From the IMG/VR virus record IMGVR_UViG_3300020577_007013: a stretch of 64,000 nucleotides of DNA; one strand, 5' to 3'. Source of the DNA: a virus. Its lineage: Duplodnaviria > Caudoviricetes. Shown piece after piece: positions 16,644 through 60,502 of this stretch. The notes below the pieces were generated by a model, which did no database searches, was not told the origin of the DNA, and worked only from the letters and a program-made list of their open reading frames with translations. The position numbers were made by a program, and so were the translations under genes. The number at the start of each line of letters is the position of its first letter. Position 1 is the first letter of the stretch.

Positions 16644-17024
16644 TTGTTCGCTGGTCTGCCTTCTACCTCAGACCCTAATCTAATTGCCAGATATCTAGAA
16701 AGCGACATAGATGCTATACTCTCCTACCATAGATTAGAACCTAAACGTTTTATGGTGAAGCTAACAAAGTCATCAGACGGCTTCGTGATAGATGGTGTCA
16801 ATTATTATACCATGCTTCTACTTCAAGGTCTGTACGTGGAGCAGAAGTACTCTACAGGTGATGTGGTCTTCGGTAATGGAGCTTATTACTCCTGTCAGTA
16901 TGGATTTATGAAGGATCCTGTCTATAGTGGTCAGTACATAGTAGCAAAGCAACTCTTCGTAAGACAGAGCCAAATGCTAGTAGATTACAAACAAAAAGTA
17001 GTAGCGACCATAGGTTTAATATAG
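16644..17024 (+). CDS. Family A (YxxLLLxG) paralog with C-terminal tag DYKQKVVATI
   Basis: YYTMLLLQG core; start uncertain. Confidence 0.5.
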   Translation: MFAGLPSTSDPNLIARYLESDIDAILSYHRLEPKRFMVKLTKSSDGFVIDGVNYYTMLLLQGLYVEQKYSTGDVVFGNGAYYSCQYGFMKDPVYSGQYIVAKQLFVRQSQMLVDYKQKVVATIGLI

Positions 17025-17337
17025 ATGAATATGGAATTTTTCTGGGCTAGACTACTATTCATTCTCTCGATTGCTTCATTTATATTAGGCATTACGGTCT
17101 TCAGGAAACACTTTAACAAGTTGCTTTACTTGCAGTTCGGGCTTCTCATTGCTGGATTTCTTATACTTTTTCTGTATTACTAATATGAAACTGTTCTACA
17201 TCAATTGGATTAGAAGACCTTACCAGAGTCTAATATTCTGGCTGAAGTGGAAAAAGAAGTGGAAGGCCGACCAAATGAAGGGGCCATTCCCGTATAAAAT
17301 CACAAAAGAAGACCTCCATAGCAGAAATAGAAAAACA

Positions 17338-17610
17338 ACGTCGGGAGACGTCGGGAGACGTCAGGCTCGGTCCAGGCACAGACCGCCGACAGAGCACTAT
17401 ATGACAAGGTCACTGCTCGGGTTCTTATATATAATGACCTACCCCGTACCTAGCTCCCTGCCACTAGGGCCCCTGTCTACCGGCTGGATCACTGGCCGGT
17501 TCACTGGCCGGGTCTCAGGTCCAGTCTCCTACGTACGAGATACCTACGGTCCGGACTCCGGTCCAATCCCAGCCGAAACCACTGGGTGTGTGGAGAGAGA
17601 TTGCTAGCAT
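17338..17610. repeat. GC-rich block with short direct repeats (ACGTCGGGAG x2 + ACGTC; TCACTGGCCGG x2) around an AT island (TTCTTATATATAAT)
   Basis: Seen directly; composition contrasts sharply with the AT-rich flanks. Confidence 0.6.
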
Positions 17611-17969
17611 CTACTTGCCTGGCATCAGCCTGCCTGTTCCTATCATCAGCTGCTTTGATGGCCATGTTCTTTGTTAAAGACAGGCACCATTTCGAGTTGC
17701 TTATGTTTCAATTGCTCGTTTCTGTGGTTGCTATAGTGGGGTATTTGTGGTAGGACCAACAGTGGTAAAGACTTTCAGTAAACAGGTGTTAACGTATGTT
17801 GAATAAACTATTCATGCTAATCGGATTTCTCGTATGCTTAGGAGTCTCATTCTTCTTGGGCTTCAGACATGGGATTTCATCGGACAAGTGTGAGATCATA
17901 ATTCCTTTGTCCATTAAGTGAGTGCCTAAGTAAAAGTCGCTTATCATAAGGTTCAATTATACCTAATGC

Positions 17970-18209
17970 ATGAAAAGGGCTTTACTCTTATTACTGCTGA
18001 TCTCCTGTAATTCAGAACCTAAGAGACATGAACCGGTTTATGTGATCGGTAACATTCAGCTTAGGTGTTATCAGAAAGTAGGAACCAACTATTGCTTCTG
18101 TTGCCATGCTTGGAGAGACGGATGCCAAAATGCTAAAGCAACTTCATTTGAATTTGTTAGCTGTGATTATCCTGAAGCATTTAAGATTCAGTTACGACAA
18201 GTTCCGTGA
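17970..18209 (+). CDS. Small Cys-rich lipoprotein
   Basis: MKRALLLLLLISC lipobox-type signal. Confidence 0.55.
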   Translation: MKRALLLLLLISCNSEPKRHEPVYVIGNIQLRCYQKVGTNYCFCCHAWRDGCQNAKATSFEFVSCDYPEAFKIQLRQVP

Positions 18210-18424
18210 AGATACTCAACAAAGAAGAACGTACTGGACAAGAGTCGCTTTATTCGGAGTCCTATGTTGTGGACTTTAGGGAGAGGAGGTCAGACGGTAC
18301 TTGGAAACGAGTGTCTAAGACCTATTACTCTACCAAGAAAGGGGCTCATAAACAAGTCGCTAAACGATTTGAAAGAGACTTCCAATTTGAGAAGGCTGTA
18401 TTAGATAAGGTAACATATCAATAA
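18206..18424 (+). CDS. Hypothetical protein
   Basis: ORF with GTGA overlap. Confidence 0.5.
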   Translation: MKILNKEERTGQESLYSESYVVDFRERRSDGTWKRVSKTYYSTKKGAHKQVAKRFERDFQFEKAVLDKVTYQ

Positions 18425-18434
18425 GGATAATATA

Positions 18435-18827
18435 ATGGAAAACACTAAAGTCTATCTTGCTGGTGGTCTTAAATCAAATTGGCAAGATAAAGTCATAGAC
18501 AGATTAAAGGGACGAGCGATTTTCTTTGATCCTAGACAACACGGTCTCGAGTCTGATGAAAAGCAGTTCACAGTCTGGGACTTACATCATGTGAAGAACA
18601 GCAACCTGCTTTTCGTGTACATTGAAAAAGATTGTCCGTCTTTCTACGGAGCTTCTTTAGAGATAGGATATGCTAAAGCATTAGGAAAGACCATAATATT
18701 AGTGGATGAGAAATCAGAGTCTGACACTCTTTTTGCAAGACAATTCAGAATGATCTTAGCTTCTGTAGATATCAAGGTCGGACTTTTAGAAGAAGGCATT
18801 CAAATATTGAAGAAGTTCTTAACATGA
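18435..18827 (+). CDS. Nucleoside 2-deoxyribosyltransferase-like protein
   Basis: KVYLAGG...WQ...FFDPR...WDL..V...GASLEIGYAKALGKTIILVD. Confidence 0.75.
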   Translation: MENTKVYLAGGLKSNWQDKVIDRLKGRAIFFDPRQHGLESDEKQFTVWDLHHVKNSNLLFVYIEKDCPSFYGASLEIGYAKALGKTIILVDEKSESDTLFARQFRMILASVDIKVGLLEEGIQILKKFLT

Positions 18828-19246
18828 AGCTTCAAATTGAAAGCGACTTCCAGCATAAGAGTCTACACTGTTTGGTAATACCTTATGAATTGGGTCATAG
18901 ATGTGGATATGTAGGAGTACCACACAATTTAGGTGATGCTTACGATCTAGGTTTGGATGTACATGGTGGAGTTACCTTCGAAGGGAGTCTGCTGAAAAAT
19001 GGGCTTTACTATTATGGCTTTGACTGTGCACATAGTGGTGACGGAAAGGATCTCAGTCTGTTGACAGACGAAATGAGAAAGGTTTATGAAGGACTTAATC
19101 TCGGTTATCAAGGAGTCCTCGGACAAGGAGTCGTCAGAACCAAGGAATATGTCGAAAACCAATGTATGTATCTTGCAGATCAGTTGGTAAAACTCGTCAA
19201 AGTGTCTCAATATAAAAAGCAACTTGTAGAAGAGGTATTGAATTGA
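18824..19246 (+). CDS. Conserved phage protein (CGYV...VHGGVTF...GFDCAH) with C-terminal tag QYKKQLVEEVL
   Basis: Motifs seen in the translation. Confidence 0.6.
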   Translation: MKLQIESDFQHKSLHCLVIPYELGHRCGYVGVPHNLGDAYDLGLDVHGGVTFEGSLLKNGLYYYGFDCAHSGDGKDLSLLTDEMRKVYEGLNLGYQGVLGQGVVRTKEYVENQCMYLADQLVKLVKVSQYKKQLVEEVLN

Positions 19247-19825
19247 ATATAATACAGACAATAGAAAAAGTACGTAGCAACAGAGAGTCACTCGAGATGG
19301 AGAGAAAACGTTGTGGTTGGTACCCACTCGATCAGGCACATGACGACTGCTTAGAGTTACTCAAAGTGATAGACCTACTCATGAACGGCAAAGCACTTAA
19401 CAGTTTACATAACCAAATAGTGAAACTCGAAGTAGAGAACGCTGAACTGAAAGAAAGGAACAGACTATTGGAATCTGAAGTTGAAGCCCTCAACGACCAA
19501 TGGCACCAACAAATGGAGAACCTGAGGTAAATGACGTATACAAGTTACCTAGACTTAACCCTAGTTGACTCAGCTTTCCTAGGTTTGTCACTTGCAGGAG
19601 CCTAATATGGAAGTATTGATTATAGCAGCAATCATCCTAGCTCTACTGCTAGTAGCTGCCACACCAAGTCTCGACTACAGAGTCATCCCGTCCAAAGGAC
19701 CTGGTGAAGTTCGCTTCGATGGTAGGAGCTTCCGTAGGGTGTTCAGAACTTCTCGAGAACGAGCTCAATGGACAGAGGAACTCAAAGCTGAGCAGAAGCG
19801 AATAATCGAGGAACTGAGAAAATGA
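19243..19825 (+). CDS. Two hypothetical ORFs (19243-19530 coiled-coil; 19592/19607-19825 N-terminal TM)
   Basis: ORF track. Confidence 0.45.
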
Positions 19826-20253
19826 AGTTCCAAATGGTAGCAGGTTTCCCGTCCAATGGCTTCACCAACAGGTTGCTCACCGAACTAGAGCTCAACTATA
19901 CCGGTAATATCCGTTACACAGTAAGACGACTATTCAGTCAACTCAAAGCAGTGACGGGACCTAAGTTCAGTTATGACTGGGAAGGGGAAGACTGCCTCGT
20001 CATAGAGCCCGCTACTTTCAGTGACTGCCTACTTTTCGTAGGGCTCGATGTTGGGGAAGCTATAGTAAACGAGTCGCTTCTCGTGAGAGACGGCAAAACC
20101 TTGTACTACTACGAGGACAGGGCCCTGAAAAAGAGACCTGACATGGGCTACGAAATCAGCTATGTAGTAGGACCTGACAACCGACTAAAGCTCGGATACG
20201 GTGGTCCACTGTTCAGGGAATATAGGGAAAAGGTGGCATGGGAACTTTCGTAA
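19822..20253 (+). CDS. Family A paralog, C-terminal tag EYREKVAWEL
   Basis: FSDCLLFVG core. Confidence 0.55.
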   Translation: MKFQMVAGFPSNGFTNRLLTELELNYTGNIRYTVRRLFSQLKAVTGPKFSYDWEGEDCLVIEPATFSDCLLFVGLDVGEAIVNESLLVRDGKTLYYYEDRALKKRPDMGYEISYVVGPDNRLKLGYGGPLFREYREKVAWELS

Positions 20254-20558
20254 ACTCCTACGTGTGGGTCCTGCTAATTTTGGGGCACTACGTGCTGGTG
20301 TCTTGGCTATCTTTTCGGATTTCGGAATCCAAGTCGGGTTGGGGAACCCTAATCCTGTGGTCCATGGGCTTGGCTCCCTACTGGATTGTGGTAACTCGAT
20401 TCTCGGACAATCTACCGTTGGCCGGCTTCATCTACGATTTCGCAGTAGCGGCCGGTTGGGCCATCGGAGTGCTGCTCTTCAAGGGAGAGACATTCGGGCT
20501 GTGGCAATACGTTGGTGTGGCTCTCATGTTTGCCGGAATCCTGGCATTTCGCAGATAA
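20238..20558 (+). CDS. Small 4-TM membrane protein (SMR/EamA-like)
   Basis: Four hydrophobic segments; C-terminal GE.FGLWQYVGVALMFAGI. Confidence 0.6.
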   Translation: MGTFVNSYVWVLLILGHYVLVSWLSFRISESKSGWGTLILWSMGLAPYWIVVTRFSDNLPLAGFIYDFAVAAGWAIGVLLFKGETFGLWQYVGVALMFAGILAFRR

Positions 20559-20633
20559 TTCGGGAACTAGGATCTCCCGGCTATTATACCTAACCATGGG
20601 ATTTAGCAGGACCGACCGAACTGGTACCCTATC

Positions 20634-22758
20634 ATGAACATCTGTACACTAGAATCTGAGTTTAAGAATCCTTTTGCTGATGAGCTCTTTCGAAGAGTGG
20701 GGCCTGTTTATGGATATATCGGAAGGCGAATAGATGAGGAATTTAAGAAGTTGGGAGTGAAATGGGAGCTGGAGTATGTGGTAGTACCTACCTCGTTCTA
20801 TACCTTCTTGCTCTTCCAAGGCTATGACTTGGCTTCTGCTAAAGCGTTTCTGTCTGCGGTTACGGATGAGGTCTATATCTATTCTTATAATGGTAAGGAC
20901 TATACCAAGGTCTATCAAGAAGTTGGAGTCGCTTTTCGGGACGAAGTCCCGGCTATTCCTGAAAGTTGTCGATTGGGACGGAGGTGGAAGGTGGTCGGGG
21001 AATTGGAGAGACTTTACAAAATTCGAGTGAGGAGCTTACTGTGAAGTACAAACTAGCAAATGGTCTGAAGACCGAATTCAGCGAGAAGCTTCTAGATCAT
21101 ATCAACGGTATCAACAGTAGGAATCCTTTTCTACTCATAGCCAAGGTCATAGACGACTACCTAGATAATTTAGGAGTCTCGTTTGTCCAGCATCCTAGCT
21201 TCTATTTTAGGAATGGTCTGATCAGCGGAAAGGACTTCTTTTCCGAGCTCCTTCTCTTAGGTTTCAACTGTCCAGGAATCAGTGATAGAGATTGTGCAGT
21301 AGTGGGAAATGTAGGGTATTGGATGAATGGGAATATAGTTGAACAGATACCTAGATCTATGAATTCTTACAGTGAATACCAAATCGAAGAGTTTCTTTTC
21401 AAGCAACGGAGTTCGAGTTTAGAGAACTTGTATAAGGCTAAGGTGGTGGAACTCCTATGAACTGGAGACTACGAAGTGGCATAGAAACTGAATTCAGTGT
21501 GGGTCTGATCAGAAGTTTGGGAAGTCATTCTGTTCTTAACGACGTTGCAGACTACCTCAACAAGTTCGAAATACCTTTGGTAGGAGGTTCTGATTTTACT
21601 TTATTTGGAACCAAAATTGCTGGGAAGTCATTCTATTACGAGCTCCTTTTATTGGGCTTTCATTGTCCCGGCATCAAGGATTGGGAATGTGCTCTTGATG
21701 GTGACGATGGGTACTGGTGGTATGAAGGTGGGATCATGTATGTATCTAGACAGCATAATGAATATGATCCATACGAGATAAGAGAATTTCTTCATAAGCG
21801 AGAGAGTGGAGTCAAGAAGAAGTACAAAGAGTATGTTAAAGCACTTTGAGACTTCATTAGACTGTCATTACTCTAGAGTTCTTTTTGAAGAGATCGATAA
21901 GTATAGAGTCTATGATGATCCTAATAGAGTGGCCGCAATGTTGGAAGGAAAATTTATTGAGATATATCAAGCAGTCGGAATCAAAAGACCATTTAGAAGT
22001 CCATCATTCTCAGTATCTACAGACGCACTAGATGATGAAGTTAGAGTAGCCGGAGAAGATATGTTCAGTGCCATGCTTCTTCAAGGATACTTCATTCCTG
22101 AAATCGCTGACTGTGCTAGACCATGTTATTCTGAAGCATCTAATAAACTCTATTACTTTACTCAATATGGACTACAAATAGACGAGACTTTTATTCAGAC
22201 TTTTCCTAGAGAGGTTGTCCATCTAAATAGCTCCCATAGACTTTTCTTAAATTTTAAGGATGTCAGTAAAGAGTACAAAGAGAAGTTGTTAGCAATCTTA
22301 TGATGAACGATTTTAATAAGGAATTCCTTGAGAGTCTTAAGAAAGAGATTGGTGGAAAGCCACTAGACAAACGAATCGAAGATCACATAAAATATAAGAC
22401 TGAAGCCTGGCTCAATGAAAGACTCTGGACATCTAGACAATTCTTTTCTGAGAAACCGACAGTCTCTATAGTTTCAGATAAAAGTTCTTACTCAATCTCT
22501 ATAAATGGAGCCGATCTATACACCTCTCTTCTTCTGCTAGGATACAATGTCCACGATCCAGACCCAACTTGTGTGTTCTATTTCAATGGCTTCAGTGAGA
22601 CCATGACTTGGGATGGAAAGTCTTTGCATTGGAAAGAGAATAAAAGTAGACTCATTAGTGAACCAAACTTTTTCAATTTAGACCCATACTCCCTTATTCC
22701 GAGACCCAATATAAAGATGATGGAAGACTACAAAGATCGGGTGTCGAGTCTTTTATGA
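20634..22758 (+). CDS. Tandem array of five family A paralogs (20634-21044, 21041-21460, 21457-21849, 21833-22303, 22300-22758), each ending in the C-terminal tag
   Basis: Cores FYTFLLFQG, FFSELLLLG, FYYELLLLG, MFSAMLLQG, LYTSLLLLG; ends LYKIRVRSLL, LYKAKVVELL, KYKEYVKAL, EYKEKLLAIL, DYKDRVSSLL. Confidence 0.7.
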
Positions 22759-22964
22759 AAAAAGGGGATCGTGTAAAAATCATTGCTAAAAATAGCATAT
22801 ATAAAGATAGAACCTATGTCATAAAGCATGCTGATAAGACTTCTGAAGTCTATCACTTAGAGTTTCCTAACGGAGATCAAGTTCCATTCTATTCTTATGA
22901 AATTGTTCGTTGTGATCTAGAAGTTCTAGATTCTTATAAGAAAAAACTAATGGAGATTTTATGA
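22755..22964 (+). CDS. KOW/SH3-like small protein with C-terminal tag SYKKKLMEIL
   Basis: MKKGDRVKII start. Confidence 0.55.
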   Translation: MKKGDRVKIIAKNSIYKDRTYVIKHADKTSEVYHLEFPNGDQVPFYSYEIVRCDLEVLDSYKKKLMEIL

Positions 22965-23121
22965 CACCACAAGATGCCAAACAGCTTTATGAAGCAGATG
23001 TAATGACACCTGAACTATGGGCCGAAGCTGCATTGGCTGCCATGGATTCAGTGACTACAAGTTACAATAATACTACAGACATGTTTTGGAGAGAATTCTT
23101 TAAGGAAGTCAAGGGGTACGG

Positions 23122-23436
23122 ATGAACTATTTCGAAGACAAAGTAACTGAGCTGAGAAAGCTTATCGCTATGTCTCTTTCAAAGGAAGAGAGAAAGGCTG
23201 TAGAGAAGCTTTTAAGAGAAGTCGCAAAAGATCAGAGAGAATTTTCTGCCAGAGCAGTTCGCTATTGGTATGACGAGGAGATGGATGAGAAATTGTTACA
23301 TCACATACTACAATGTGAAATCAGAAATGATCCAAGTTGGGGAGCACTTACAGCAGTAGACAAAAACTTACAAGGTCTAATGGATTTAGGAGAAGACTTT
23401 GTCGATGATTACAATAGGAGAAATGATGTACGATAG
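23122..23436 (+). CDS. Hypothetical protein
   Basis: ORF track; ATGA coupling. Confidence 0.5.
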   Translation: MNYFEDKVTELRKLIAMSLSKEERKAVEKLLREVAKDQREFSARAVRYWYDEEMDEKLLHHILQCEIRNDPSWGALTAVDKNLQGLMDLGEDFVDDYNRRNDVR

Positions 23437-23875
23437 TGAAGCAGATACAAGAAAGCATATAGCGAGAGTCGCTGACTTAATAGGTGAAGTTCAAAAGGAT
23501 CTAATCGATAGAGCTCGATATCATGATGCTTCTAAACTTAGTCCTGAAGAGAAAAGCTACTTTGACGAGTACACACCTAAACTAAAAGGGGTCACATACA
23601 ATTCTCCAGAATACAAGCAGTTCCTTGTTGACATGAAGCCAGCTCTCGACCATCACTATGCTAAGTGTCGGCATCATCCCCAACATTTTAAGAACGGAGT
23701 AGAGGACATGAATATTATAGATGTTCTTGAGATGTTACTTGACTGGAAAGCTTCTTCTGAACGTCACAACGATGGAAACATTCGGAAGAGTATCGAGATC
23801 AATGCAGAAAGATTCGGTCTAAGTCCACAATTAAGAAAGATCATGGAAAATACTTGTGACTATTTAAGGTGGTAA
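23423..23875 (+). CDS. HD-like metal-binding protein (DUF5662-type)
   Basis: H...HDASK...ALDHHY..CRHHPQHF...EMLLDW; AGGAG SD before ATG 23423. Confidence 0.7.
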   Translation: MMYDSEADTRKHIARVADLIGEVQKDLIDRARYHDASKLSPEEKSYFDEYTPKLKGVTYNSPEYKQFLVDMKPALDHHYAKCRHHPQHFKNGVEDMNIIDVLEMLLDWKASSERHNDGNIRKSIEINAERFGLSPQLRKIMENTCDYLRW

Positions 23876-23876
23876 C

Positions 23877-24501
23877 ATGAAAATTGATTCTAAACAGTTT
23901 GGTCCAAATGACAGCAGAATGAGAGTAAGGTCAGGATTGATCAATTCTGAAGATCCTTTAGTAGTCTTGCTATATCTACTAATGAGAGATCACATTCCTT
24001 CAGGAGATATTGAAGGTATTTTGAAGGACATTCAGAATGAAGAGTATGAATTCAGCAATGGGTGGCTCGCAAATCATGCTAAGGATATTGCAGAGAGACT
24101 AAGAGTTCAATCTGTTCAGAAAGAAAAATCTAAGCCAAAGAGACCTAGAAATAGAGTCATTAAAGGATGATATGGAAGATATAGTCTACCTTATCGAAGA
24201 CCCAAATCCTAGTCATCCTGAGTATGCTGGACTTGAGAAGCACATTTACATTTATGAAGATGGAAAGAAATTCAGGCTCATGCGTTCTTATGGATATTGT
24301 TGTTTCAAGAAAGGAATAGAATATAGGAAGCTCAAGGAGATTAGTCGAGACACTCTCATCTATTATCTCACCAATATTGAGTCACTAGTCGGTGGAGATC
24401 AAGAAGATTGGCATGCTATGGCCGATGATTTGCTCTGTCTCTATATCAATGACAAGGAAATAGTAGAGGCTTACAGCAATGTCGAGAAATGGTATGCATG
24501 A
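23877..24501 (+). CDS. Two hypothetical proteins (23877-24170, 24172-24501)
   Basis: ORF track. Confidence 0.5.
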
Positions 24502-24513
24502 GTTGTAAACAGA

Positions 24514-25725
24514 ATGTCAACGTTCTCTGAAGAACTTTTATCTAGACTAAGAGAAGAGTCTAAAGGGCTGAATTCCTTTTCATCCATAGATAGTCTTATT
24601 AGAAAATTCATTCCTGATAGATCTTTCAGATACCAATGCCATTGGAAAACTTCGTATGAACTGTCAGGAATCATTCCTGATGATTACTATAGTGCTCTAC
24701 TTCTTCAAGGAATCAGAGTTCCTATCTCTTTGGATAGAGACTCGTTGGTCGTCGTCGACGGTAATATAGCTTATGAATGGAATAGGAAACTCATCACCTA
24801 TGACTACAAGAAAGTTGGTCATCAATCATTCAGAAGATACTACGTTGTAAAAGAGTCTGACAGACTGAGTTTTCCTAGTAGTAAGATAAGAGAAGAATAC
24901 TTGGAGAAAGTCAATGAGCTTTTATGAGACTCTCATCTCGATGATTCAAAAAAGATTCGGAAGAGTGAGAGTGGATGTTAAAGCAGTGAGAGCTTATGTC
25001 AGAAAGCTGATCAAAGACGAACGATTTCAATTTGTGGTAAATTCGGACGGGACATTGTCAGACTATACTCACTACGGAGCTCTTCTTATGAGAGGAATCA
25101 AAGTTCCTAGGTCTGTGATCAGCAATAGTCTCTATGTGAGAGATGGGGATATCTACTATTCTTGGTTTAGGGGAACTCTGGTCGCAAATAAATACTCAGA
25201 CTTAGATAAACAATTGAATGTTGGTCATTGGTTCACAGTAAGCGACGGAGATAGACTACAGATAAAAGTCAGTTCCTTAGAAGAGGAATATGAGAGGAAG
25301 GTTCTGTGCATTCTGACTTGAGAGAATGGTTCATTAAGACTTGGTTCGGTCAGAAGCTGACTCCAGAAGTTAGAACAGCCATTAAGATCGATATGAAGAG
25401 AATTCTCCCTTATCAGATCCATTATGTGATCGATCGGAAAGACGGACTCATCCTTGATCTCATTCCTAAAGACTATTACACAGCATTACTATTTAGAGGA
25501 GTGAACATACCCGGAATTGGATCTGGAGATACTGTGAGAGACCGTAAGGTCAATTATTCTTGGATTGCTGGGGAGCTTCAAGTCTTAAGAGTCCCAGATC
25601 ACGAAGGAAAAAGATATGGTTTCAATTATGAAGTAAGAGAAAAAGACAGATTGAAGTTCGCTAAGAGCCCTATTAAAATGAACTATGAGAACAAAATTAG
25701 AGGACTCCTGAAAGAGGTATTATAG
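24514..25725 (+). CDS. Three family A paralogs (24514-24927, 24914-25321, 25306-25725) with C-terminal tag
   Basis: YYSALLLQG, HYGALLMRG, YYTALLFRG; ends EYLEKVNELL, EYERKVLCIL, NYENKIRGLL. Confidence 0.7.
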
Positions 25726-30650: not shown

Positions 30651-30656
30651 ACGAGT

Positions 30657-46301: not shown

Positions 46302-46309
46302 TAAAAATT

Positions 46310-48043: not shown

Positions 48044-48097
48044 AATAGATAGTTGTGGACTAACTAGATATGAACTTTCGCTCGAATAGGAGATAAT

Positions 48098-51034: not shown

Positions 51035-51077
51035 GTTTATTTATAATAGACAGATCGAGACTCGATAACTAATTTGT

Positions 51078-51329
51078 ATGAATCCCTACAAAAGTCTCTT
51101 TACCGAAGATCTTATTCCTGGTGGTAAAGCTGACGATGTTAAGACAATCGAAGCTCTTACTTCTAGTGGAGACTCGGTATTTACGGTAGACATTGAACAA
51201 ATCAAAAAAGGTCTTAAAGTAGAGTCTGAGCATACTTCAGATCCTGCAGTCGCACTCGAAATTGTGTTTGATCATCTTACAGAGTTCGATGACTATTATG
51301 ATAGACTCGAAAAAGCAGAGGAAGCATAA
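51078..51329 (+). CDS. N-tagged (MNPYKSLFTE) DUF5661-like protein
   Basis: GGKAD...GLKVESEHT...EIVFDHLTEFDDYYDRL. Confidence 0.65.
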   Translation: MNPYKSLFTEDLIPGGKADDVKTIEALTSSGDSVFTVDIEQIKKGLKVESEHTSDPAVALEIVFDHLTEFDDYYDRLEKAEEA

Positions 51330-52084: not shown

Positions 52085-52682
52085 ATGCCAGCACCGCTCG
52101 TTAAATCATTAGCTAAAAAATACCATAAGTCGCCTAAGACTGTGGACAAAAAATTCAAGAGACTGAAGAAAGGAATTGTCGACTCAGGAAAAGGTGGATA
52201 TGGATTGGTTGTTTCTCAACTGAAAAAAGGTCTCAAGAAAGAAGAAACTCAAGTTCCTTATAAGAGATTGTTCGATGGCAAATAAGTATACAGACCCAGT
52301 CGCTCAACTTTTTCTTCAAGGTCGGAAGATAACCACAGACCTTACATTTGAAGAAAATTTTTCCGTTAAAGGGAAGGATGAGCACACTCTAGTAATCAAA
52401 AATACTAATGGATTCGTCCCTGTCACCTATAACAATATCGGATCTTTAGCTAGAATCATTATTACAGTAACTCCACTCACTACCGTGACTGTAGATCCTA
52501 TTGTAACACTTAAATTCACTATCAATGACGGAATGAATCCAATCTACACTATCGATTTACCATTCCGTAAAATTTTCTATTATATGCCTGATACAGTCTT
52601 CAGTGCATACATTACGAACATACAACTCAGTACCACCTCAACAACAGATGTTGAAATCGACTTCAGAGCCTACGGAGAATAG
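52085..52682 (+). CDS. Small basic protein with C-terminal YKRLF (52085-52285) and a beta-rich protein (52275-52682)
   Basis: ORF track. Confidence 0.55.
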
Positions 52683-52792
52683 AACACAACCAGACGAGTC
52701 TGGTGTGAATGCCCTCATTGAGAGAGCTTTACAGAAGCGAAATTTCAAAACAGACTCTGAAATTGATGATGAATGGGAAATTCTGAAGAGAG

Positions 52793-55559
52793 CTAACAAT
52801 CTTTCAGAAGATTCTTGACTTTGTTCATATACTTTTCACCAGGAATCATTGGCATGACTTCTTCTAGCTCTTCACCTGAAATCCAAAAACTTCCATAGTC
52901 AGGTAGACCGACGACCACATGTCGTCCATCTACTCTTTTGACTTCCAAGTAATCAAGTCTTCTTATAATCTCTCTTGGTTTTTTTAGAGTCTCTGATAGT
53001 CCACTCAAATAAACTTCCTTATTTTTCAGTCTAACGTACAAGATCAACCACCTTTTGTTTGTATTCTGACTCTAATTTGGTCTCTTCTTTGAAAAGATCA
53101 AGGTCCTTAGGAGACAATCTCGGTTTTAATCCTTCATATTCTAGAGTAATAATAATTTGTTGAATCGCTTCATCGAACTCTGAAGTACAATAGAAGTCTT
53201 TTCCTCTGTCGATTGCTGCTTGAAATCTTTTTACAGAGGTAGTATTTCCGTATATAGATTGAAGATATCGTTTAACCGGGACTTCGGAGTTAGGTTTTAT
53301 TTTAGCTCTCATAATTTAAGAACCTTGTTGACGTACTTTTCTTTGAGCTTCTCATTTACTTTTTCATTAATGACAAAATGTTTAGGCAAATTGAAGACAG
53401 CTTCTCCTATGCTTAAGATGTAGTCTCCGTCAGTCCCTTCACTCATTGCGAACCAATCATTGTCTTCTTCACTGAGTCTGTTTCCGACGTACTCTTGAAT
53501 AAGCTCACTGCTAATATGTCTAGTCTTGTCAAGAAGGTAGTCTATTCCTGCACTAGAGATTTGCTTCTTTACGAGCATAGATCTAAGACCTTTTCCTTGT
53601 AACTTTTCTCGGAGTCTTTATTCACTTCAGTGAGAAGATTGACGTCTAGATAAACTGAGACTGCATCGGCTTGAATATAGCTTCTTCCCATAAAGCCTGC
53701 TTCTGACATTAGAAATTCTTCATTGTCTTGAATGTATTTGAGAGTCTTGATGTTGAACTTACTGAAGTTGTCTTCTATGAACTTTTGCTTACAACCGATT
53801 TTGAATCTGACTGTCTTCATAGAATTTGTAAGAGCTTTTCCTTATACTCTGTCTCGATTTCAGACTCGACTATATGCACTTGATCTAGGAAAAGACTCAT
53901 GACTCCTGGATTTAGACTGTTCAAAGGATCACTAGGAAAGAGTATGGTGATCAGCTTTCTATTATTAATAGATCTTCCTCTATCTTCAGCTTTGAAATAA
54001 GGGGTTGTTCTGAGTACTCTACTCATACCAGGATAAGCGTCAATGCAATTTTGGAGCATATTTCTTTTAATCATTACCGTCATTCGAAAGATCCTGAACT
54101 TTCTTCTTGTATTCTTCAAACTTTTCTGAATGGACTACCTCATAGGTTCCTTCAGAGAAGTCTATAGACTCTCCCATAAATTCTACCAAAGGTTCTGGAA
54201 TTTTTACAGTGGCTCCACCTTCAATTTTTTCAGCTTCCATATAAGGATTATCGATTAAGAAGTCTCTTAAGACTTTCAAAAGCTTTGTCTCCTGTTTGGT
54301 GAACGGTGAGTCTTTCTTTTTAATCTCATCTTCTAAGAATTCCTTGAATTGGCTTTTGATTCTGTGATCGAGGTTAATTCGCATATCAACTTAGTCTTGT
54401 ATTTATCCATAATAGATGATTTATAGAGTACAAAATAATTAGGATCTATTGGAACAAATCCAGGAACAGAAAGCTCTTCAGGAAGAACCATTTCTACTCC
54501 GGTAGAAGACTTGGAGTTGGTCTCGACTTCGAAGACAGTTACAGAGTCTATGTATTTTAATATGTCTAGTTTTTTCTGATCATCGATGATATTAGACTTT
54601 ACTTTTTTGAAAACTTCTACCAAATGGTCTCTGAACTCTGTTCTTCCATTTCTCAAGAAGACCGCTCTCATAAAAGCTCTCTGACTTTTTTCAAATAGTC
54701 TTCCTCAACCCTAGACTTGATTATTTCTATCCACTCTTCTCGTAGAGGAAATTTTCCGGTATGCTTCTTGTTCAGTTTGTTAAGTGACTCTTTAGGAATA
54801 ATCATTGAGTAGGATCCAACACCCAGTCCCTCGACTACTTCAAATCTCTGTGCATCGACGATCAAATTTATGAAGACCAATTTTTCTTCTTTAGAAAAAG
54901 AGAATTGAAGGTTTTCCAAAGAACTTGTAAGCCATTCCAAACATAGAGTCTTGGCTCCTTCTTTGAAGACTGCTTTCATAATTGGAGAATTTTTTCTTTG
55001 TATTCTTCTTCTATCTTAGAAATCCAAGGAATAGTGGAGTCTGCTTCCACTTTCACTCTTTGTTGACCTATGTTAAGAGTCTCGACTATTACAAAAGATC
55101 CTTCGGAAGTCTTCTCGAAGAGTCTTTCTTTCTTCAGTCCTTCAATTATAGATGTGAAATCAGATGGCTTGACCCCTAATCCTAAAGCTGTGGTGGACAT
55201 TCCCTCTAATTTGGAGATGAGTCTTTCCTTGGCTCCTGGTTTGAAGACCACTTTCATAGTAAGTCCTTCAAACGTTCACTGTAAATGAGTTTGGATTCCT
55301 TTTCCTTGACTACCTTCATAAAAGTCGGATCGACAGGAAACCATTCTGCTTCAAGTTCTTCTCTGAATTGTTTAGGAACGAACAAATCGAAGCCGTCTTC
55401 TGATATGACCCCTTTGAAGTAAGGGGACTTGCCCAAAAATTCTCTCAAAGCTTTAAGCTTCTTACTGTTATTCTTTCTCTCCTTCATTTCAGAGAGAATC
55501 TGTTCTATGTATCTCTCTTTAGAGAGACCATCAAATTGAAGTAGTCTTACGTCATTCAT
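52793..55559 (-). CDS. Tandem array of ten 83-112 aa family B proteins, all ending in the C-terminal tag
   Basis: N-termini M(K/R)(A/V/T)V(F/R/K); ends IYSERLKDLL, EYKEKILQL, DYLKKVRELL, KYKTKLICEL, EYKKKVQDL, EYKEKLLQIL, SYKEKVLDL, KYVNKVLKL, EYKQKVVDLV, KYMNKVKNLL. Confidence 0.7.
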
Positions 55560-56788
55560 AGTCTGTATTCAAAGCCATGTCGATCCAAAATTTAAGAGCT
55601 TCTCTGATGGTAGGCTTCCAACCCTTTTTGTCTTCGATTATGAAGGACATATTTTCTATGATTCCTTCATTTCCTTTTTCATCTACAGGGATTGATTGGA
55701 AACCTGTGTCTTGAATAATCCAAAGTCCATTGTCATCATAGAGAATGGAAGGACTGAAGCCTAGCTTTGTAAAGGACTCTATAATGAAGTCAACTGTAAG
55801 TGTATCGAAGCGATCTGTTAGATACCCTATGATCTCCACTGTCAGCTTGTCTGCTTCAGGATCGTCGTAGTTCAAGTCGAGAAGTTTAGATCTCTTTTCG
55901 ATGAGTTCTGCAATGTGGTTCTGATCGATCATTTAAAGAGCTCCTTTACATTCTCCCCATTGTTCCAGATATAAGCGACTTTATTCGTCTCTGTATTCTC
56001 TAGAATAATGGTAGCTTCTCCATTCCGAATCTCTCTTACTCTCATCCAGACTCCTCGATTAGACTCATGCTTAGGGTCTCTTAATCTGATTGATCGTCCT
56101 ATATGAGTTTTGTCAAGAATCACTTAGAGTATTTTTTAAGAGCTTCTTCCAGAACAGTTTTTCGTTCGGTCGATTTCTTGATAGATAAATTGACTTCTTC
56201 GAGCTCGTTCAGAATCTCTTTATAGATCTGAGATGCTCGTTCTTGTTGTCTCGTTGCAAGCTCTTTGTCAGCGAGCTCCTTAGCTTTAATAAGATTTTCG
56301 CTTTCAATGTCCCCTAATTCCTTAAGTTGATTTTCGCTTATCATTTTTGTCTCCTTTAGTTCTTCAATTATAGTATGACTTGATAGAGTTGGGTCGAACT
56401 CTGAGATGTCTTCAATTTCTCGTTCATCCCAAAAATATCCATCAGAACAAGGTCTTCTGGTCGAAGGTCCTAAGCTATCGACTCTTAGCCATTTTCCTAC
56501 ATTTTTTTGTAGAAGAGTAGAGTCGAAACGGAGACTTGACTTTATTTTAATCCACATTCCGACTTCTATGTCTGAAAATTCTAGTTTTTTCTTAGTGGTC
56601 ACTTCGCATAGATCTGTAACTCTATTTTGGTAGTCTGCAATTGCCCATGAGTTCCTAGTATTGGGATTCTCTATGATTATATGGTCACTACCAACGGATA
56701 ATATTCTAAGCCAGACACCTTCATTCTCTACTTGAAGAGAATCTCTTATCTTAACGAAGTGTCCAATATTTTTGCTTGTTAATTTCAT
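55552..56788 (-). CDS. Hypothetical proteins 55552-55932, 55929-56123 and 56120-56788 (the last two share a repeated IG..I..RD..EN.GVW.R domain)
   Basis: ORF track; repeat visible in the translations. Confidence 0.55.
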
Positions 56789-57202
56789 TTATTCTTCCTC
56801 AAAATCTGGATCATAGTCCTCATTTGAACTACTTGTTTCAATGTTCAACTGATCGAAGAAGAAGTCTCCTTCATCATATCGTATTTCAATACCATTTTTG
56901 ATCTCTATGGTGAGTCCTAATCTTTCCTCAACCGATTCTCCTGGAAGAAGCTCAGTGATACCTATGAGACCGGCGTCAACAGGAAAAGAATGTGAGTATT
57001 CCTTTCCTTCAATGTAACCGTCTCCATTGTAGACCCCATCTCCGTAAGCAGTTCCAGCAGCCCAGACTGTTCGTCCTTTGAAATTATGAACCTTTGATTC
57101 ATCTTCGAACATATCTACATGATCGAGAAGATCTGACCAATCCTCGTCAGGAATTGCATAACAAGGATCTCCAATAAAGTATTTTCCTGGTTTAATTTTC
57201 AT
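56789..57202 (-). CDS. Conserved phage protein (IGDPCY...TAYGDG.Y...VDAGLIG; DUF4241-like)
   Basis: Motifs. Confidence 0.55.
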   Translation of the reverse strand: MKIKPGKYFIGDPCYAIPDEDWSDLLDHVDMFEDESKVHNFKGRTVWAAGTAYGDGVYNGDGYIEGKEYSHSFPVDAGLIGITELLPGESVEERLGLTIEIKNGIEIRYDEGDFFFDQLNIETSSSNEDYDPDFEEE

Positions 57203-57657
57203 CTTGATTCTCCTTCCATAATTTTGTGAAGTACGTGAGTCTTAGATAACTCGAATATATCAGGTCTTTTGTTTCTGAAGTGATTCACTTTTCTGATCTC
57301 TTTAATCATGAATTTGTGAATAGGATTTCTCAATTCGTTTATGTCAAGTTGATCTCTTCCGTAATTGAAAATTGTTCTGATAATAGCATGATTAGGTTGC
57401 TTGATTGACCAACCTTTTATGTTGTCAATTATCATTTTCCTTAAGAACCAAGCTCCGAAAAATGAATCGAGAAGTGTGAACTTATTCGTTAGATTTTTTA
57501 CATTATAGGAAGGAAATGAAAGTCCTCTGTATTTTGTGAGAAAGACGAAGCATCTTAGGAATAACATTTCAAAGATTTCCTTTGAATAACTATAATAGAC
57601 TTCGAGAATCTCAGCTCCTAAATTTTTCCACTTATCGATCGTTTCTCTTAAATCTGT

Positions 57658-57666
57658 ATTATACCA
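57658..57666 (-). promoter_or_regulatory. Extended -10 element TGGTATAAT heading the minus-strand 57.6-52.8 kb operon
   Basis: Perfect TGnTATAAT, divergent from the ACTAA-headed gene at 57711. Confidence 0.5.
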
Positions 57667-57710
57667 TAATTCATGGCAGACAGAAAGTTCCTTAAACACA
57701 CTAACCTTGT

Positions 57711-59153
57711 ATGGAACGATATGAAAGCTTTTATGAAAAGAAAGGAAAGAAGAAGAAATCAACGTCGAAGAGCAAGGAGAAACCCTTGAAAGTCGGAGAT
57801 CGAGTGGTACAGAAAACTTCAGGAATCGAAGGTACTGTTCTAGTAAAACCGACCAAAGACAAGAAATATATTCCCATTAAATGGGACGGAAGCTCTCAAA
57901 CTACACAACATGTAGACTCTATCAAAAAGGTGGAAAAATGAATCCCTTAATCAAATCAATCTCTAAGACTTACAATTTAATCGAAGAAGATGTAGCAGCT
58001 GAATGGGAAGAAATTAGAGAGGAGCTTGGAGTGACCGATGAAAAGATCGGTGCTTCTGTTATCCTTAAAGAATTCAAAGCTAGATACTCCGATGCTACTT
58101 ATAAGTCTCAATTCAATGAAGCAAAAGACATCGTAAAATTTACTTCAGAACAAAAGAAAAAGCTTCTCAAATATTGCTCAGTAAAAGTCGGTGCAATCTT
58201 TCATCAGGCTCTTCTTACTACAGGAACAAGTCCAGAAGGTGAAGCAGAGCTCTTAAATCAAGTCATTGAAAAATTTATCAAAGAAGAGCCTATGAACTTC
58301 AAAGAAGAGCCTAAAGAAGAACCTAAAAAAGAGAAACAAGAAGAGAGCTTCTTTGAAGGAGAAAGCTTCTCAGGAATTTACAAGAAATTGTTTAAGTAAA
58401 GCTTCAGTAGAACCTAGACAATGGAGTACGACCTCGAACAACTCTGGGATGAATGTAAAGAAGAAGCATCTGAAGAAGGGAGAGAAGAGGACTTCAAATA
58501 TCTTCGAGACAAAGTCGCTGAGAAGTTAGGTGAAGAGCCTTTGACAGAGTCTGTCACTAAATACAAACCGTTGTTTACATGAGGAACTCAACTTGAAATT
58601 CATAAAAGAAAAAGGAAGACTCCCTATCTACTCACTCTACATCAAGAATATTGTTCGTAAAGGATTTATAGACCTTAGTGCTGTATTCAACGATCTTTTC
58701 TCACATGAAAAGCGAGACCCAATTTTCAGAGCAGCTGGCTTTATAGGTGCTGTAGCTTGTGAAGTAGGTGAAAGAGACTTTATGAATAATGTCGCTCAAT
58801 ATGCTAAGTCATATTCTGAAGGTAACTTTCAACGATATGTCCCTCTATTCGAAGGAATTGATCCTGTTGAAAAGAGTGCTCCTATTAACAAAGATAAGTT
58901 AGGAAGAGGCAAGGATAAAAAGAAAGTCCTTCCTCTTGATTCAGAAAAGAGTAATGTACCGTTTGATCTTCTTCTTCAAGCTCAAGAGTTGAAAGCTAAA
59001 GGAAAAACATTCGAAGAAGTTCGTAATCATTTCAAGTTAACTCATGATCAAATGAGACAGATATTTTCAGACTATTCAGTGCCGCATGATTTAGAAGCTT
59101 CGTTTAAGAGATCTGACCGACACAGAGATAGAGTTCTTTCACAAAAGCCCTAA
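57711..59153 (+). CDS. ACTAA-headed island of tagged proteins: 57711-57941 (MERYESFYE), 57938-58399 (internal YKSQFNE, terminal YKKLFK), 58421-58582 (terminal KYKPLFT), 58593-59153 (internal RYVPLFE)
   Basis: Tags seen; 58421-58582 (53 aa) translated manually. Confidence 0.6.
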
Positions 59154-60502
59154 GATCTTCTCTACATAAGAGTCCATGTCCCAATTGACAGGACCTAAAA
59201 TATGAACACTATTTTTAGGAACGATCTTTCCGAATCTATGCATAGGGTGAACGCATACCACGTAATAGTCCCTTTGATTTTTGAAGTTCTTCAATGAGAG
59301 TTGATCATTACAATAAAGTATCTGATCATCTTCCACTGTCAATTTAGGAAGATTTTTTCTGACCACAGATCTGAAAAAGCTCATCTGCATTCTGTCGACT
59401 ATTCGACATTTAAACCAAGTCACTTTTAAGTTTCTTTTTGTACTCATCTAAAAGATCATTGACTTCCACAACGTCTCTTGCATCTATCGATGTAAAAGAT
59501 TTTATTCCGAACTTGTCCATAGAAAGCCTTATATAATCGACTCCATTTTTAGGTCCTTGCCACTCCATGACGACATAGAAGACTGTCTGAGAATGATAGA
59601 CTGAAGGCTCATTAGCAAGTCTCCATTTTCTTTCTTCTTCATTCTTAAATCTGACTCTTTTCATAGATGAGTCCATACAAAGTTTCTAAATACTTTAAGG
59701 GAACTAACATAGTCTCGTCTAAATTTGATCCCAATTCGTGTCCGATTGAGAACTTACAGTCTTTATCGTTGTAAATTACATACCAAGTCTCTGGAAAAAT
59801 TTTATGACCTAGAGTAGAGATGTAGAAAGCTCTAGGTCTGTCTTTAGTCTTATCGATAATTTTTTCTCTCATTAAGAATGCTTTTTCAAGCACTAAGGTT
59901 TTGAATCTAATTTTCTTAACCATCACTTAAGAGCTCATCCAACTTGTCGAAGTATTCTATAGAGACTTGTTTATCTTTGTCTTCTGTCAAATCTTTTCCC
60001 GTCCACATTCCGAGTTTATGTCGACAGTCTTGATCTAAATGAATCGTATAGTCGACTGGGTCCATGAGATATCTTGTAGTAGACTGTACAAAGTAGTCCC
60101 TCAATCCAGTCCTGATATCTCTAATTCCGAGACTTATCAGAAAGTCTTCCTCAGACTGACGATCCTTAAATTTGACTTTTATCGTCATCTTTATGTTTCT
60201 TCTTTCTTGTGTATGTCTTCTTGTCTTTGATGACCTTTGTCGGCTTGAGTTTGAATTGCTTTCGAGAGAGTTTTTTGATTGTCTTAGACTTCATTTACTA
60301 GAGTCAGTACATCACATTGATATCGAAGTCTCATAATATTCTTCTTTTTCTTTTTCTCATAAATCGTCTCACAATATCTGACCTCGGTTGGGCTCAAGTA
60401 ATTTTCTGATACAAGTCTTAGAGTCTTTCTATCTGACTCAATTTCAAATAGCCTTACTCCGAGAGAAGTATTGAAAGAGATACCTAGACAGTCCGTAATC
60501 AT
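59139..60502 (-). CDS. Second family B-like array (59139-59447, 59410-59664, 59645-59926, 59916-60188, 60284-60502) with C-terminal tag
   Basis: Starts MKRVRFK, MMVKKIRFK, MTIKVKFK; ends SYVEKILGLL, EYKKKLKSDL, KYLETLYGLI, EYFDKLDELL, RYQCDVLTLV. Confidence 0.6.

What the first reader, a model, noticed from the sequence alone, without database searches (positions are those of the whole stretch)
16644..60502. The two tags are mutually exclusive and segregate with transcription units and promoter type
Seen: no ORF carries both tags. N-tagged genes lie almost entirely in + strand blocks headed by ACTAA, like the structural genes, including an island at 57711-59153 embedded between minus-strand C-tag arrays. 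C-tagged genes lie mostly in blocks headed by sigma70-like -10 boxes (20582 +, 57658 -, 61416 -); 30381, downstream of ACTAA-headed 29837, is an exception. Inference: a two-channel sorting scheme, with late-made cargo for the next infection (N-tag) and early-made host-takeover adaptors (C-tag).
Basis: inference. Interest (0 to 1): 0.72.

Follow-up and report, generated by a model that had tools for sequence, protein, structure and literature searches.

The report
Two terminal peptide tags, separate gene blocks
A large uncultured relative of phage T4 puts a T4-like "load me into the head" peptide on the front of 27 mostly unrelated proteins and a different short helix on the end of 24 small proteins, and the two sets lie in separate gene blocks with different start signals, but the idea of a two-channel sorting system is shown for neither tag.

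Summary
Both tags are real. The N-tag (M-x-x-Y-K-x-[L/K]-F-(x)-E) heads 27 of my 136 called genes, and 22 of the 27 bodies are unrelated. The C-tag (acidic-Y-K-x-K-V-x-x-L-L, then 0-11 residues to the stop) ends 24 genes on at least six unrelated bodies. No gene has both, but that follows from block segregation and is not separate evidence.

N-tag genes are 26 of 27 on the + strand. They lie in blocks that share the start-proximal word ACTAA with the tail and baseplate genes (17 genes against 1.0 expected). C-tag blocks have 0 such heads in 71 genes if two ACTAA copies buried in coding sequence are set aside. With those two counted, the segregation is no longer significant.

The sigma70 half of the claim is weak. 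Only one site stands out, TGGTATAAT at 57658-57666 (-). The cited box at 20582 reads better on the opposite strand, and general sigma70 matches are at chance level. The "N-tag island" at 57.7-59.2 kb has no proper N-terminal tag.

Best reading: the N-tag is a T4-type capsid-targeting propeptide on late genes. The C-tag is a tethered docking helix of unknown partner on lineage-restricted accessory proteins. Timing, packaging and sorting are untested. This scan has already noted expanded T4-like capsid tags on other DNA.

The parts
7935..8638 (+). Two N-tagged genes (7935-8414, 8411-8638) between the gp25-like and gp6-like baseplate genes
   Evidence: N-tag scores 19.7 and 21.2 bits; neighbours identified
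29837..30394 (+). ACTAA-headed gene with a weak N-tag (12.9 bits, Tyr at residue 2)
31953..37298 (+). Run of 12 N-tagged genes (starts 31953, 32359, 32744, 33138, 33464, 33724, 34062, 35217, 35726, 36061, 36834), plus an internal in-frame tag at 34705 in ORF 34276-35220
38957..39999 (+). N-tagged genes 38957-39718 (Tyr at residue 7) and 39715-39999
42743..44521 (+). N-tagged genes 42743, 43000 (329 aa, with two further in-frame tag copies at 43351 and 43789), 43989 and 44177
46310..47289 (+). N-tagged genes 46310-47011 and 47008-47289
49235..52084 (.). N-tagged genes 49235, 49557 (GNAT domain), 50390-51034 on the minus strand (AbiEii-like nucleotidyltransferase domain), 51078 (DUF5661) and 51329
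20634..25725 (+). C-tagged genes of the 'plus family' (20634, 20966, 21457, 21806, 22300, 24514, 24914, 25306) and the unrelated 69-aa gene 22755-22964
28730..30650 (+). Three C-tagged genes with unrelated bodies: 28730-29155, 29512-29748 and 30345-30650. The last lies downstream of ACTAA-headed 29837.
52793..55559 (-). Minus-strand array of 10 mini-genes (83-112 aa), 9 with a strong C-tag and one weak (54333-54671)
59139..60188 (-). Second minus-strand array: 3 strong C-tags (59139, 59410, 59916) and one weak (59645)
285..12419 (+). ACTAA words 5-20 nt before the start codons of virion genes (285, 1658, 4734, 7304/7311, 7910, 8650, 12415)
29826..58560 (+). ACTAA words before + strand starts in the N-tag region and the island (29826, 30646, 31578/31582, 38025, 40558, 42990, 45820, 48059, 51068, 57700, 58556)
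57658..57666 (-). Extended -10 box TGGTATAAT in the divergent gap, upstream of the minus block 57567 to 52793
16587..20591 (-). Three intergenic AGGTATAAT boxes on the minus strand (16587-16595, 17956-17964, 20583-20591).
57711..59153 (+). + strand island with two ACTAA heads but no proper N-terminal tag; it holds an internal tag copy and C-terminal tag cores

Best explanation
Two unrelated short terminal peptides mark two gene populations of an uncultured T4-related phage of about 254 kb.

(1) The N-tag is a T4-type capsid-targeting propeptide. By analogy with T4 (inferred, not shown), it binds the prohead core, is cut after the Glu at residue 9 or 10 by the prohead protease, and leaves the cargo in the head for delivery with the DNA. 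The cargo includes a GNAT and a nucleotidyltransferase. Its genes are switched on together with the virion genes, from a shared signal ACTAA placed 5-10 nt before the ATG. That signal is most likely a late promoter element that gives messages with little or no leader.

(2) The C-tag is an amphipathic helix of about 11 residues, joined by a poorly ordered linker to at least six unrelated small bodies. It most likely docks them on one common partner, which is unknown. These genes lie in tightly packed arrays without ACTAA heads, so they probably belong to a different, pre-late, expression class.

The tags never co-occur because they live in different expression blocks that grew by local duplication and tag-preserving domain shuffling. 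No evidence shows an active rule of exclusion.
For: N-TAG LAYOUT.
- Met1 is followed by Tyr at residue 4 in 23 of 27 genes, and Phe stands four residues after the Tyr in 27 of 27.
- A Glu two residues after a hydrophobic residue occurs in 27 of 27 (12 L/I-x-E, 15 F-x-E). The first Glu is at residue 9 or 10 in 23 of 27.
- T4 IPII and IPIII, read from the T4 record, begin with Met1, Tyr4, Ile8 and Glu10.
- Passages of PMC9026906 say that the first 10 residues suffice for targeting, that residues 4 and 7 target and residues 8 and 10 direct processing, and that gp21 cuts after L/I-X-E.

N-TAG PORTABILITY.
- The bodies fall into 22 blast clusters of 27. They include GNAT, AbiEii-like nucleotidyltransferase and DUF5661 domains.
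- A homologue on a separate 246,652-bp contig keeps the tag but has a different first domain.
- Extra in-frame copies inside ORFs fit cleavage sites.

LATE LINK.
- Two N-tag genes lie inside the baseplate operon.
- ACTAA heads occur at 17 of 62 genes in the structural, N-tag and island blocks, against 0 of 71 in the C-tag blocks (Fisher 6e-7).
- ACTAA-headed starts lack a Shine-Dalgarno word.
- At 48059 and 7910 the word lies 34 and 20 nt upstream of the ATG. At 48059 an AGGAG follows it. This fits a promoter better than a ribosome site.

C-TAG.
- All 24 copies lie at the C end.
- With tails removed, the plus and minus families are unrelated (hhalign probability 0.2%). Genes 22755, 28730, 29512 and 30345 match neither family.
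- The AlphaFold models put the tail in a terminal helix. In the minus-family model this follows a stretch with pLDDT under 50 (residues 64-78), and the whole model is only moderate (pLDDT 67.7). The plus-family model has pLDDT 81.8.
- Every near-orthologue found keeps the tail.
Against: - No measurement of timing, cleavage or packaging exists.
- The head genes, the prohead protease and the scaffold lie outside the window and could not be read.
- The T4 tags score only 1.2 bits on this phage's matrix, so the likeness is one of layout, not a statistical match.
- 15 of 27 tags have F-x-E and not the T4 L/I-x-E.
- The ACTAA segregation loses significance if two coding-embedded copies are counted (15 of 135 shifts).
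- ACTAA has no conserved flank and could be a translation signal.
- 12 of 24 C-tag genes share the strand of the late genes and have no recognisable promoter of their own.
- 20 of the 24 strongly tagged genes belong to just two paralogous families (8 plus-family and 12 minus-family members), so much of the 'tag' count is duplication.
- No partner is known.
Confidence: 0.55

Rival explanations
1. One reading: two true address tags feed two sorting channels, one loading late cargo into the capsid and one steering early adaptors to a host-takeover hub.
For: The two tags are portable and occur on unrelated bodies. They segregate by block.
Against: No reader of the C-tag is known. The early timing of the + strand C-tag block is unsupported. 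The bodies have no recognisable fold or family.
Confidence: 0.15
2. The segregation is a trivial by-product of tandem duplication. Each tag is simply the best-kept end of locally amplified gene families, so tagged genes cluster and never mix. The C-tail is part of each fold or a self-association helix, not an address.
For: The plus-family members are paralogous beyond the tail (blastp down to 5e-25; alignment). The minus-strand mini-genes align over their whole length. Both families are confined to this phage and near strains: 12 related hits among 1.84 billion representatives (plus 2 unrelated repeat proteins), and 10 hits for the plus family. Given the blocks, the expected N/C overlap is only 0.56.
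Against: With tails removed, at least six bodies are mutually unrelated. The N-tag bodies form 22 clusters of 27. The N-tag is kept while the domain behind it is swapped in another phage. The tail is the only part conserved across the families.
Confidence: 0.2
3. ACTAA is not a promoter but a signal for translation start or RNA processing at genes without a Shine-Dalgarno sequence. On this reading the 'promoter type' contrast is really a contrast in ribosome-loading mode.
For: The word lies only 5-10 nt from the ATG at 16 called + strand starts, and it overlaps the upstream stop codon at several of them, which looks like coupling. These starts lack GGAG-type words. No upstream or -35-like conservation is present.
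Against: Several copies follow intergenic gaps of 39-297 nt or lie in a divergent gap (285, 1658, 12415, 29826, 51068, 57700). At 48059 and 7910 the word lies 34 and 20 nt upstream of the ATG, and at 48059 an AGGAG-type ribosome site follows it. The word is depleted window-wide (94 against 186, sd 11), as expected for a signal that must not fire at random.
Confidence: 0.25
4. The C-tag is this lineage's sliding-clamp-binding epitope, like the interchangeable acidic and hydrophobic C-termini of T4 gp43, gp33 and gp55. It would tether many small proteins to the clamp.
For: Passages of PMC2988020 describe such C-terminal epitopes in T4: acidic and hydrophobic, joined by a flexible linker, and interchangeable between unrelated proteins. 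The C-tag is acidic plus hydrophobic, terminal, and follows a low-confidence linker.
Against: No sequence comparison was possible, because the phage's own polymerase, gp33 and gp55 are outside the window. In 11 of 24 genes two or more residues follow the 11-residue motif before the stop, up to 11. In T4 the epitope is at the very end.
Confidence: 0.06

Closest known systems
Capsid-targeting sequence (CTS) of phage T4 internal proteins IPI, IPII and IPIII, and the Alt propeptide, removed by prohead protease gp21
   Same: An N-terminal peptide of about 10 residues on otherwise unrelated proteins. It has Met1, an aromatic residue at 4, a hydrophobic residue at 8 and Glu at 9 or 10, the positions that matter in T4. 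The cargo includes enzymes, as Alt is in T4. Its genes lie among late genes.
   Different: It sits on 27 genes in 64 kb, against the handful that T4 has (that T4 count is recalled, not from a call). Lys5 and Phe8 are nearly invariant. 15 of 27 copies have F-x-E and not L/I-x-E. There are extra in-frame internal copies, and C-terminal copies without Glu. Cleavage, packaging and the protease are not shown.
Propeptide-processed head and ejection proteins of giant phages phiKZ, 201phi2-1 and SPN3US
   Same: Many head-internal proteins are cut after Glu at a very short motif, often at several sites per protein (passages of PMC9026906). This resembles the multi-tag ORF 43000-43989.
   Different: Their motif is S/A-X-E without a fixed N-terminal address peptide. 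This phage is T4-like by its baseplate genes, not phiKZ-like.
T4 late promoters (an 8-base -10-type element read by gp55, with no -35 element)
   Same: A short single-element signal without a -35 box in front of virion genes (passages of PMC2988020).
   Different: The T4 consensus TATAAATA (recalled, not from a call) occurs only twice in the window. Here the word is ACTAA, and it lies so close to the ATG that the messages would have little or no leader.
Sliding-clamp-binding C-terminal epitopes of T4 gp43, gp33 and gp55
   Same: A portable, acidic and hydrophobic C-terminal peptide on a flexible linker, shared by unrelated proteins.
   Different: The partner is unknown here. The peptide sits on 24 or more tiny proteins of unknown function, is not always at the extreme end, and could not be compared in sequence.

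Membership tests
T4-type capsid-targeting sequence (CTS) | N-terminal position, about 10 residues, with an aromatic residue at position 4 | tested here: met
   Tyr is at residue 4 in 23 of 27 genes and within the first 7 residues in all 27. T4 IPII and IPIII have Tyr4, and IPI has Phe4.
T4-type capsid-targeting sequence (CTS) | Cleavage motif L/I-X-E ending at about residue 10 | tested here: inconclusive
   A hydrophobic-x-Glu motif occurs in 27 of 27 genes, but only 12 are L/I-x-E and 15 are F-x-E. The specificity of this phage's protease is unknown.
T4-type capsid-targeting sequence (CTS) | The tag is shared by otherwise unrelated proteins | tested here: met
   The bodies form 22 blastp clusters of 27. 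The Pfam domains differ. A domain swap behind the tag is seen in P0019.
T4-type capsid-targeting sequence (CTS) | Significant sequence similarity to the T4 tags | tested here: not met
   T4 IPII and IPIII score 1.2 bits and IPI scores -0.2 bits on this window's matrix, against a threshold of 12. The resemblance is one of layout only.
T4-type capsid-targeting sequence (CTS) | A gp21-type prohead protease and a scaffold core are present in the genome | not testable with these tools
   No genome is held, and the contig is not in the collections. The window holds only a ClpP-family protein at 48098-49036.
T4-type capsid-targeting sequence (CTS) | The proteins are packaged in the head and processed | not testable with these tools
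   This needs virion proteomics.
T4 late promoter (gp55-dependent) | The consensus octamer TATAAATA (recalled) stands in front of late genes | tested here: not met
   It occurs only twice, both on the minus strand, and never before a structural gene.
Sigma70 promoters at the heads of C-tag blocks | A -10/-35 or extended -10 match on the coding strand upstream of the block, more often than chance | tested here: inconclusive
   The feature is met at 57658-57666 (-). The general scan is at shuffle level. TGNTATAAT occurs 6 times against 2.7 expected (4 of 100 shuffles reach 6). The box at 20582 reads on the opposite strand. No head of the 59-64 kb block lies in the window.
Clamp-binding C-terminal epitope (T4 gp43/gp33/gp55 type) | The same peptide stands at the C end of the phage's own polymerase, gp33 and gp55 | not testable with these tools
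   Those genes are outside the window.

The most novel reading that the evidence does not exclude
The phage runs a proteome with two addresses. A capsid-loading N-peptide sends dozens of late-made effectors into the head. Separately, a portable C-terminal helix plugs 30 or more fast-evolving small proteins into one hub, for example the sliding clamp, the MoxR/VWA pair noted elsewhere in this genome, or the ClpP-like protease. Gene class, timing and destination could then be read from the two ends of each protein.
Probability: 0.12. Interest if true: 0.8.

Novelty: new variant of a known kind. Interest (0 to 1): 0.5.

Why it matters
If the N-tag works as in T4, the packaged and probably injected protein set of an uncultured giant phage can be read straight from its sequence. 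That set is 27 or more proteins, including an acetyltransferase and a nucleotidyltransferase, and it gives candidates for first-strike anti-defence factors. The ACTAA word would be a late-gene signal unlike the T4 consensus, and it would imply messages with little or no leader. The C-terminal helix is an undescribed shared handle on small accessory proteins. Finding its partner would explain a large share of this phage's genes of unknown function.

Tried and rejected
WHOLE-GENOME AND RELATIVES' DNA. No genome is held for the window. A 40-base word of the window was absent from viral contigs and metagenome contigs. The contingency test could therefore not be repeated on the whole genome or on a relative. 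Megablast of 1-20000 against phage records gave nothing.

EXPRESSION. Four metatranscriptome runs hold 38-42% of the words of 50000-59999, but they are kept as contigs only. Laid on 44001-64000, they cover mainly 56.3-64 kb of a variant about 97% identical, and they cover little of 46-56 kb. Contigs give no strand, no ends and no level, so they say nothing about timing.

FOLDS AND FAMILIES. Fold searches with both models gave no usable match: PDB Foldseek, VIA-align wide with a best Z of 2.7, and BFVD. The protein atlas gave only scores under 0.9. PHROGs and Pfam gave nothing for any of the strongly C-tagged genes.

OTHER PROMOTER MOTIFS. A k-mer search for another upstream motif in the C-tag blocks found nothing beyond codon echoes of the tag. 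An alignment of the ATTATACCT sites showed no extended conservation. The T4 late octamer occurs only twice.

REJECTED IDEAS. The N-tag is not a DNA-level signal, because codon usage at the conserved positions is ordinary. The exclusivity is not independent evidence for a sorting rule.

Full report
WHAT THE WINDOW IS. The window is part of an uncultured myovirus distantly related to T4. It encodes a tape-measure protein, gp5/gp25/gp6-like baseplate proteins and a lectin-domain fibre at 0.3-16.5 kb. The gp6-like protein is about 25% identical to those of T4-like cyanophages. There is no nucleotide match among deposited phages. The window's own proteins sit on a contig of 253,865 bp in the protein collection. 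The rest of the genome could not be read. I called 136 genes with a greedy longest-ORF rule plus hand-corrected starts. All counts below use that list.

THE N-TAG. The peptide is M-x-x-Y-K-x-[L/K]-F-(x)-E.
- A position matrix gives 32 six-frame hits of 12 bits or more, against 0 in the reversed sequence.
- 27 genes carry the tag within their first 9 residues. Tyr is at residue 4 in 23 of them, Phe stands four residues later in all 27, and a hydrophobic-x-Glu motif is present in all 27 (12 L/I-x-E, 15 F-x-E).
- Codon choice at the conserved residues mirrors genome-wide usage, so the peptide is what is selected.
- With the tag removed, the 27 bodies fall into 22 blastp clusters.
- Three bodies have recognisable domains: GNAT, an AbiEii-like nucleotidyltransferase and DUF5661.
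- A homologue of the C-terminal half of the GNAT protein, on a different contig of 246,652 bp, starts with the same tag but has another first domain.

COMPARISON WITH T4. T4 IPII and IPIII, read from the T4 record, begin with Met1, Tyr4, Ile8 and Glu10. Passages of PMC9026906 state four things. The first 10 residues of IPIII suffice for head targeting. Residues 4 and 7 carry the targeting. Residues 8 and 10 direct processing. Protease gp21 cuts after L/I-X-E. The layout here is therefore the T4 layout, although the T4 peptides score only 1.2 bits on this phage's matrix. Passages of PMC9391042 and PMC3012670 describe T4 internal proteins as injected anti-defence factors that share only the tag. 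My reading is that the N-tag is a capsid-targeting propeptide. This is an inference from layout and context.

THE C-TAG. The peptide is acidic-acidic-Y-K-x-K-[V/L/I]-x-x-[L/I]-L, followed by 0-11 residues and a stop.
- The matrix gives 24 hits of 12 bits or more, all at ORF ends. The reversed sequence gives one.
- Eight + strand genes of 130-165 aa are paralogues beyond the tail. Two genes with a weak tail (16644, 19822) join this family by hhalign (68% and 85% probability).
- The minus-strand genes of 83-112 aa align over their whole length.
- With tails removed, these two families are unrelated (hhalign probability 0.2%). Genes 22755, 28730, 29512 and 30345 match neither family. The tail therefore sits on at least six unrelated bodies, but 20 of its 24 strong copies come from two duplicated families (8 plus-family and 12 minus-family members).
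- AlphaFold places the tail in a terminal helix. In the minus-family model (pLDDT 67.7) the helix follows a stretch under pLDDT 50. The plus-family model is better (pLDDT 81.8, pTM 0.74).
- Neither model matches a solved or viral fold.
- Both families are confined to this phage and close strains. The minus family has 12 related hits among 1.84 billion representatives, and the plus family has 10 hits. Every orthologue keeps the tail.
- The function is unknown. A common docking helix is my best guess. The acidic, hydrophobic and interchangeable C-terminal clamp-binding epitopes of T4 gp43, gp33 and gp55 (passages of PMC2988020) are the nearest precedent in kind.

MUTUAL EXCLUSIVITY. No gene has both tags (0 of 136). 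Under independence 4.8 would be expected, with P(0) = 0.0028. The tags live in different blocks, however. In the one block that holds both kinds (43 genes, 24 N, 1 C) my arithmetic gives an expected overlap of 0.56. Exclusivity is thus a consequence of segregation and not a second observation. Gene 30345-30650 is the single C-tag in N-tag territory. A later in-frame Met in that ORF opens with M-K-K-Y-K, which recalls the tag, but the Phe four residues after the Tyr that all 27 N-tags carry is missing.

SEGREGATION WITH ACTAA.
- ACTAA is the most enriched 5-mer at -18 to -9 of start codons. It occurs at 17 genes against 1.0 expected (p about 1e-15), more than any Shine-Dalgarno word. Other NNTAA words occur 2-4 times.
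- Window-wide the word is depleted: 94 copies against 186, sd 11, in shuffles.
- On the + strand, 16 of 27 ACTAA-N(4-11)-[A/G]TG arrangements are called gene starts.
- Starts with the word in that window mostly lack a GGAG-type word. No flank is conserved.
- Heads that are intergenic or overlap the upstream stop number 7 of 15 genes in the structural block, 8 of 43 in the N-tag block, 2 of 4 in the + island, and 0 of 39, 0 of 15 and 0 of 17 in the three C-tag-bearing blocks (Fisher 6e-7).
- 19 of 27 N-tag genes lie within eight genes downstream of such a head, against 1 of 24 C-tag genes. No circular shift out of 135 reaches this difference.
- The caveat is the filter. Two ACTAA copies (22946, 54391) lie inside the tag codons of an upstream C-tag gene and just before the next start. 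If they count as heads, the contrast falls to 21 of 27 against 10 of 24, and 15 of 135 shifts reach it.
- The effective sample is a few blocks, not 51 independent genes.

WHAT ACTAA IS. I favour a late-promoter element that gives messages with little or no leader. Several copies follow gaps of 39-297 nt or lie in a divergent gap. At 48059 and 7910 the word lies 34 and 20 nt from the ATG, and at 48059 a normal ribosome site follows it. Passages of PMC2988020 say that T4 late promoters also lack a -35 element. The T4 octamer itself (recalled) occurs only twice here. A translation or processing signal is not excluded.

THE SIGMA70 HALF.
- Generic sigma70 matches are at shuffle level (38 against 37.6, and 48 against 45.7).
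- One site is convincing. TGGTATAAT at 57658-57666 (-) stands in the divergent gap ahead of the minus block that ends in the C-tag array.
- The cited box at 20582 is AGGTATAAT on the minus strand, pointing away from the C-tag block.
- GGTATAAT occurs 0 times on + and 8 times on -. With TGNTATAAT included, 11 sites are all on the minus strand.
- This suggests that host-type promoters fire leftward throughout. It leaves the + strand C-tag block (12 genes) with no identified promoter.
- The site at 61416 is only a 5-of-6 hexamer.

THE CLAIMED N-TAG ISLAND (57711-59153). It has two ACTAA heads, but none of its four genes has an N-terminal tag of 12 bits or more. It holds an internal copy at 58100 and two ORFs that end in the tag core.

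WHAT COULD NOT BE DONE. No expression evidence could be obtained, and no complex prediction.

VERDICT. The N-tag reading is well grounded by analogy. The C-tag reading and the two-channel scheme are speculation. This scan has noted expanded T4-like capsid tags before in other genomes. The new elements here are the C-terminal helix, the ACTAA signal and their separation.

Noticed in passing
52259-52285, 58379-58399, 58562-58582, 43757 (alternative frame), 38002-38029: The N-tag core Y-[K/R/N]-x-[L/K/I/F]-F also occurs at the very C end of + strand ORFs, with the stop 1-4 residues after the Phe and no Glu. There are 4 such hits against 0 in the reversed sequence, plus one Y-K-S-I-Y variant. These may be frameshifted or fused genes, or a C-terminal form of the tag that is not cleaved.
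   Followed up: partly
43000-43989 and 34276-35220: Single ORFs carry extra in-frame tag copies: residues 117 and 263 of the first ORF, and residue 143 of the second. They look like polyproteins or multiply cleaved core proteins.
   Followed up: partly
whole window, minus strand (4678, 13664, 15764, 16595, 16812, 17964, 19627, 20591, 31944, 43678, 57666): All 11 GGTATAAT or TGNTATAAT boxes are on the minus strand and none is on the plus strand, while plain TATAAT is 31 on + against 36 on -. Seven lie antisense inside + strand genes. This may be a single polarity of host-type early transcription, as in T4.
   Followed up: partly
whole window: ACTAA is strongly depleted overall (94 copies against 186, sd 11, in shuffles) although it is concentrated just before start codons.
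   Followed up: yes
48059-49036: A ClpP-family protein (Pfam PF00574, E = 3e-12) has a signal-peptide-like N terminus. It lies in the middle of the N-tag block and is untagged. It is preceded by ACTAA, an 8-codon mini-ORF and then a normal ribosome site.
   Followed up: no
44561-45816: An IS605/TnpB-like transposase gene is inserted in the N-tag block. The palindrome TTAGTTAACTAA lies just upstream of it.
   Followed up: no
51038-51045 (-): One of only two copies of the T4 late octamer in the window lies 3 nt before the GTG start of the only minus-strand N-tag gene (50390-51034).
   Followed up: no
16000-22000: This segment has a higher G+C content (0.43-0.45 against about 0.37). It contains the three intergenic AGGTATAAT boxes, a 362-nt stretch without a called + strand gene, and a nucleoside 2-deoxyribosyltransferase-like gene at 18435-18827.
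   Followed up: no
59671-60002 and 60323-60499: Contigs of a strain about 97% identical, from public RNA-library runs, replace these stretches with other sequence (68 and 205 letters). One replaced stretch covers a C-tag mini-gene, which suggests turnover within the array.
   Followed up: no
49557-50411 and protein P0019: A second jumbo-phage contig (246,652 bp) encodes a protein with the same N-tag and the same C-terminal half, but a different first domain in place of the GNAT. The domain was shuffled behind a conserved tag.
   Followed up: partly
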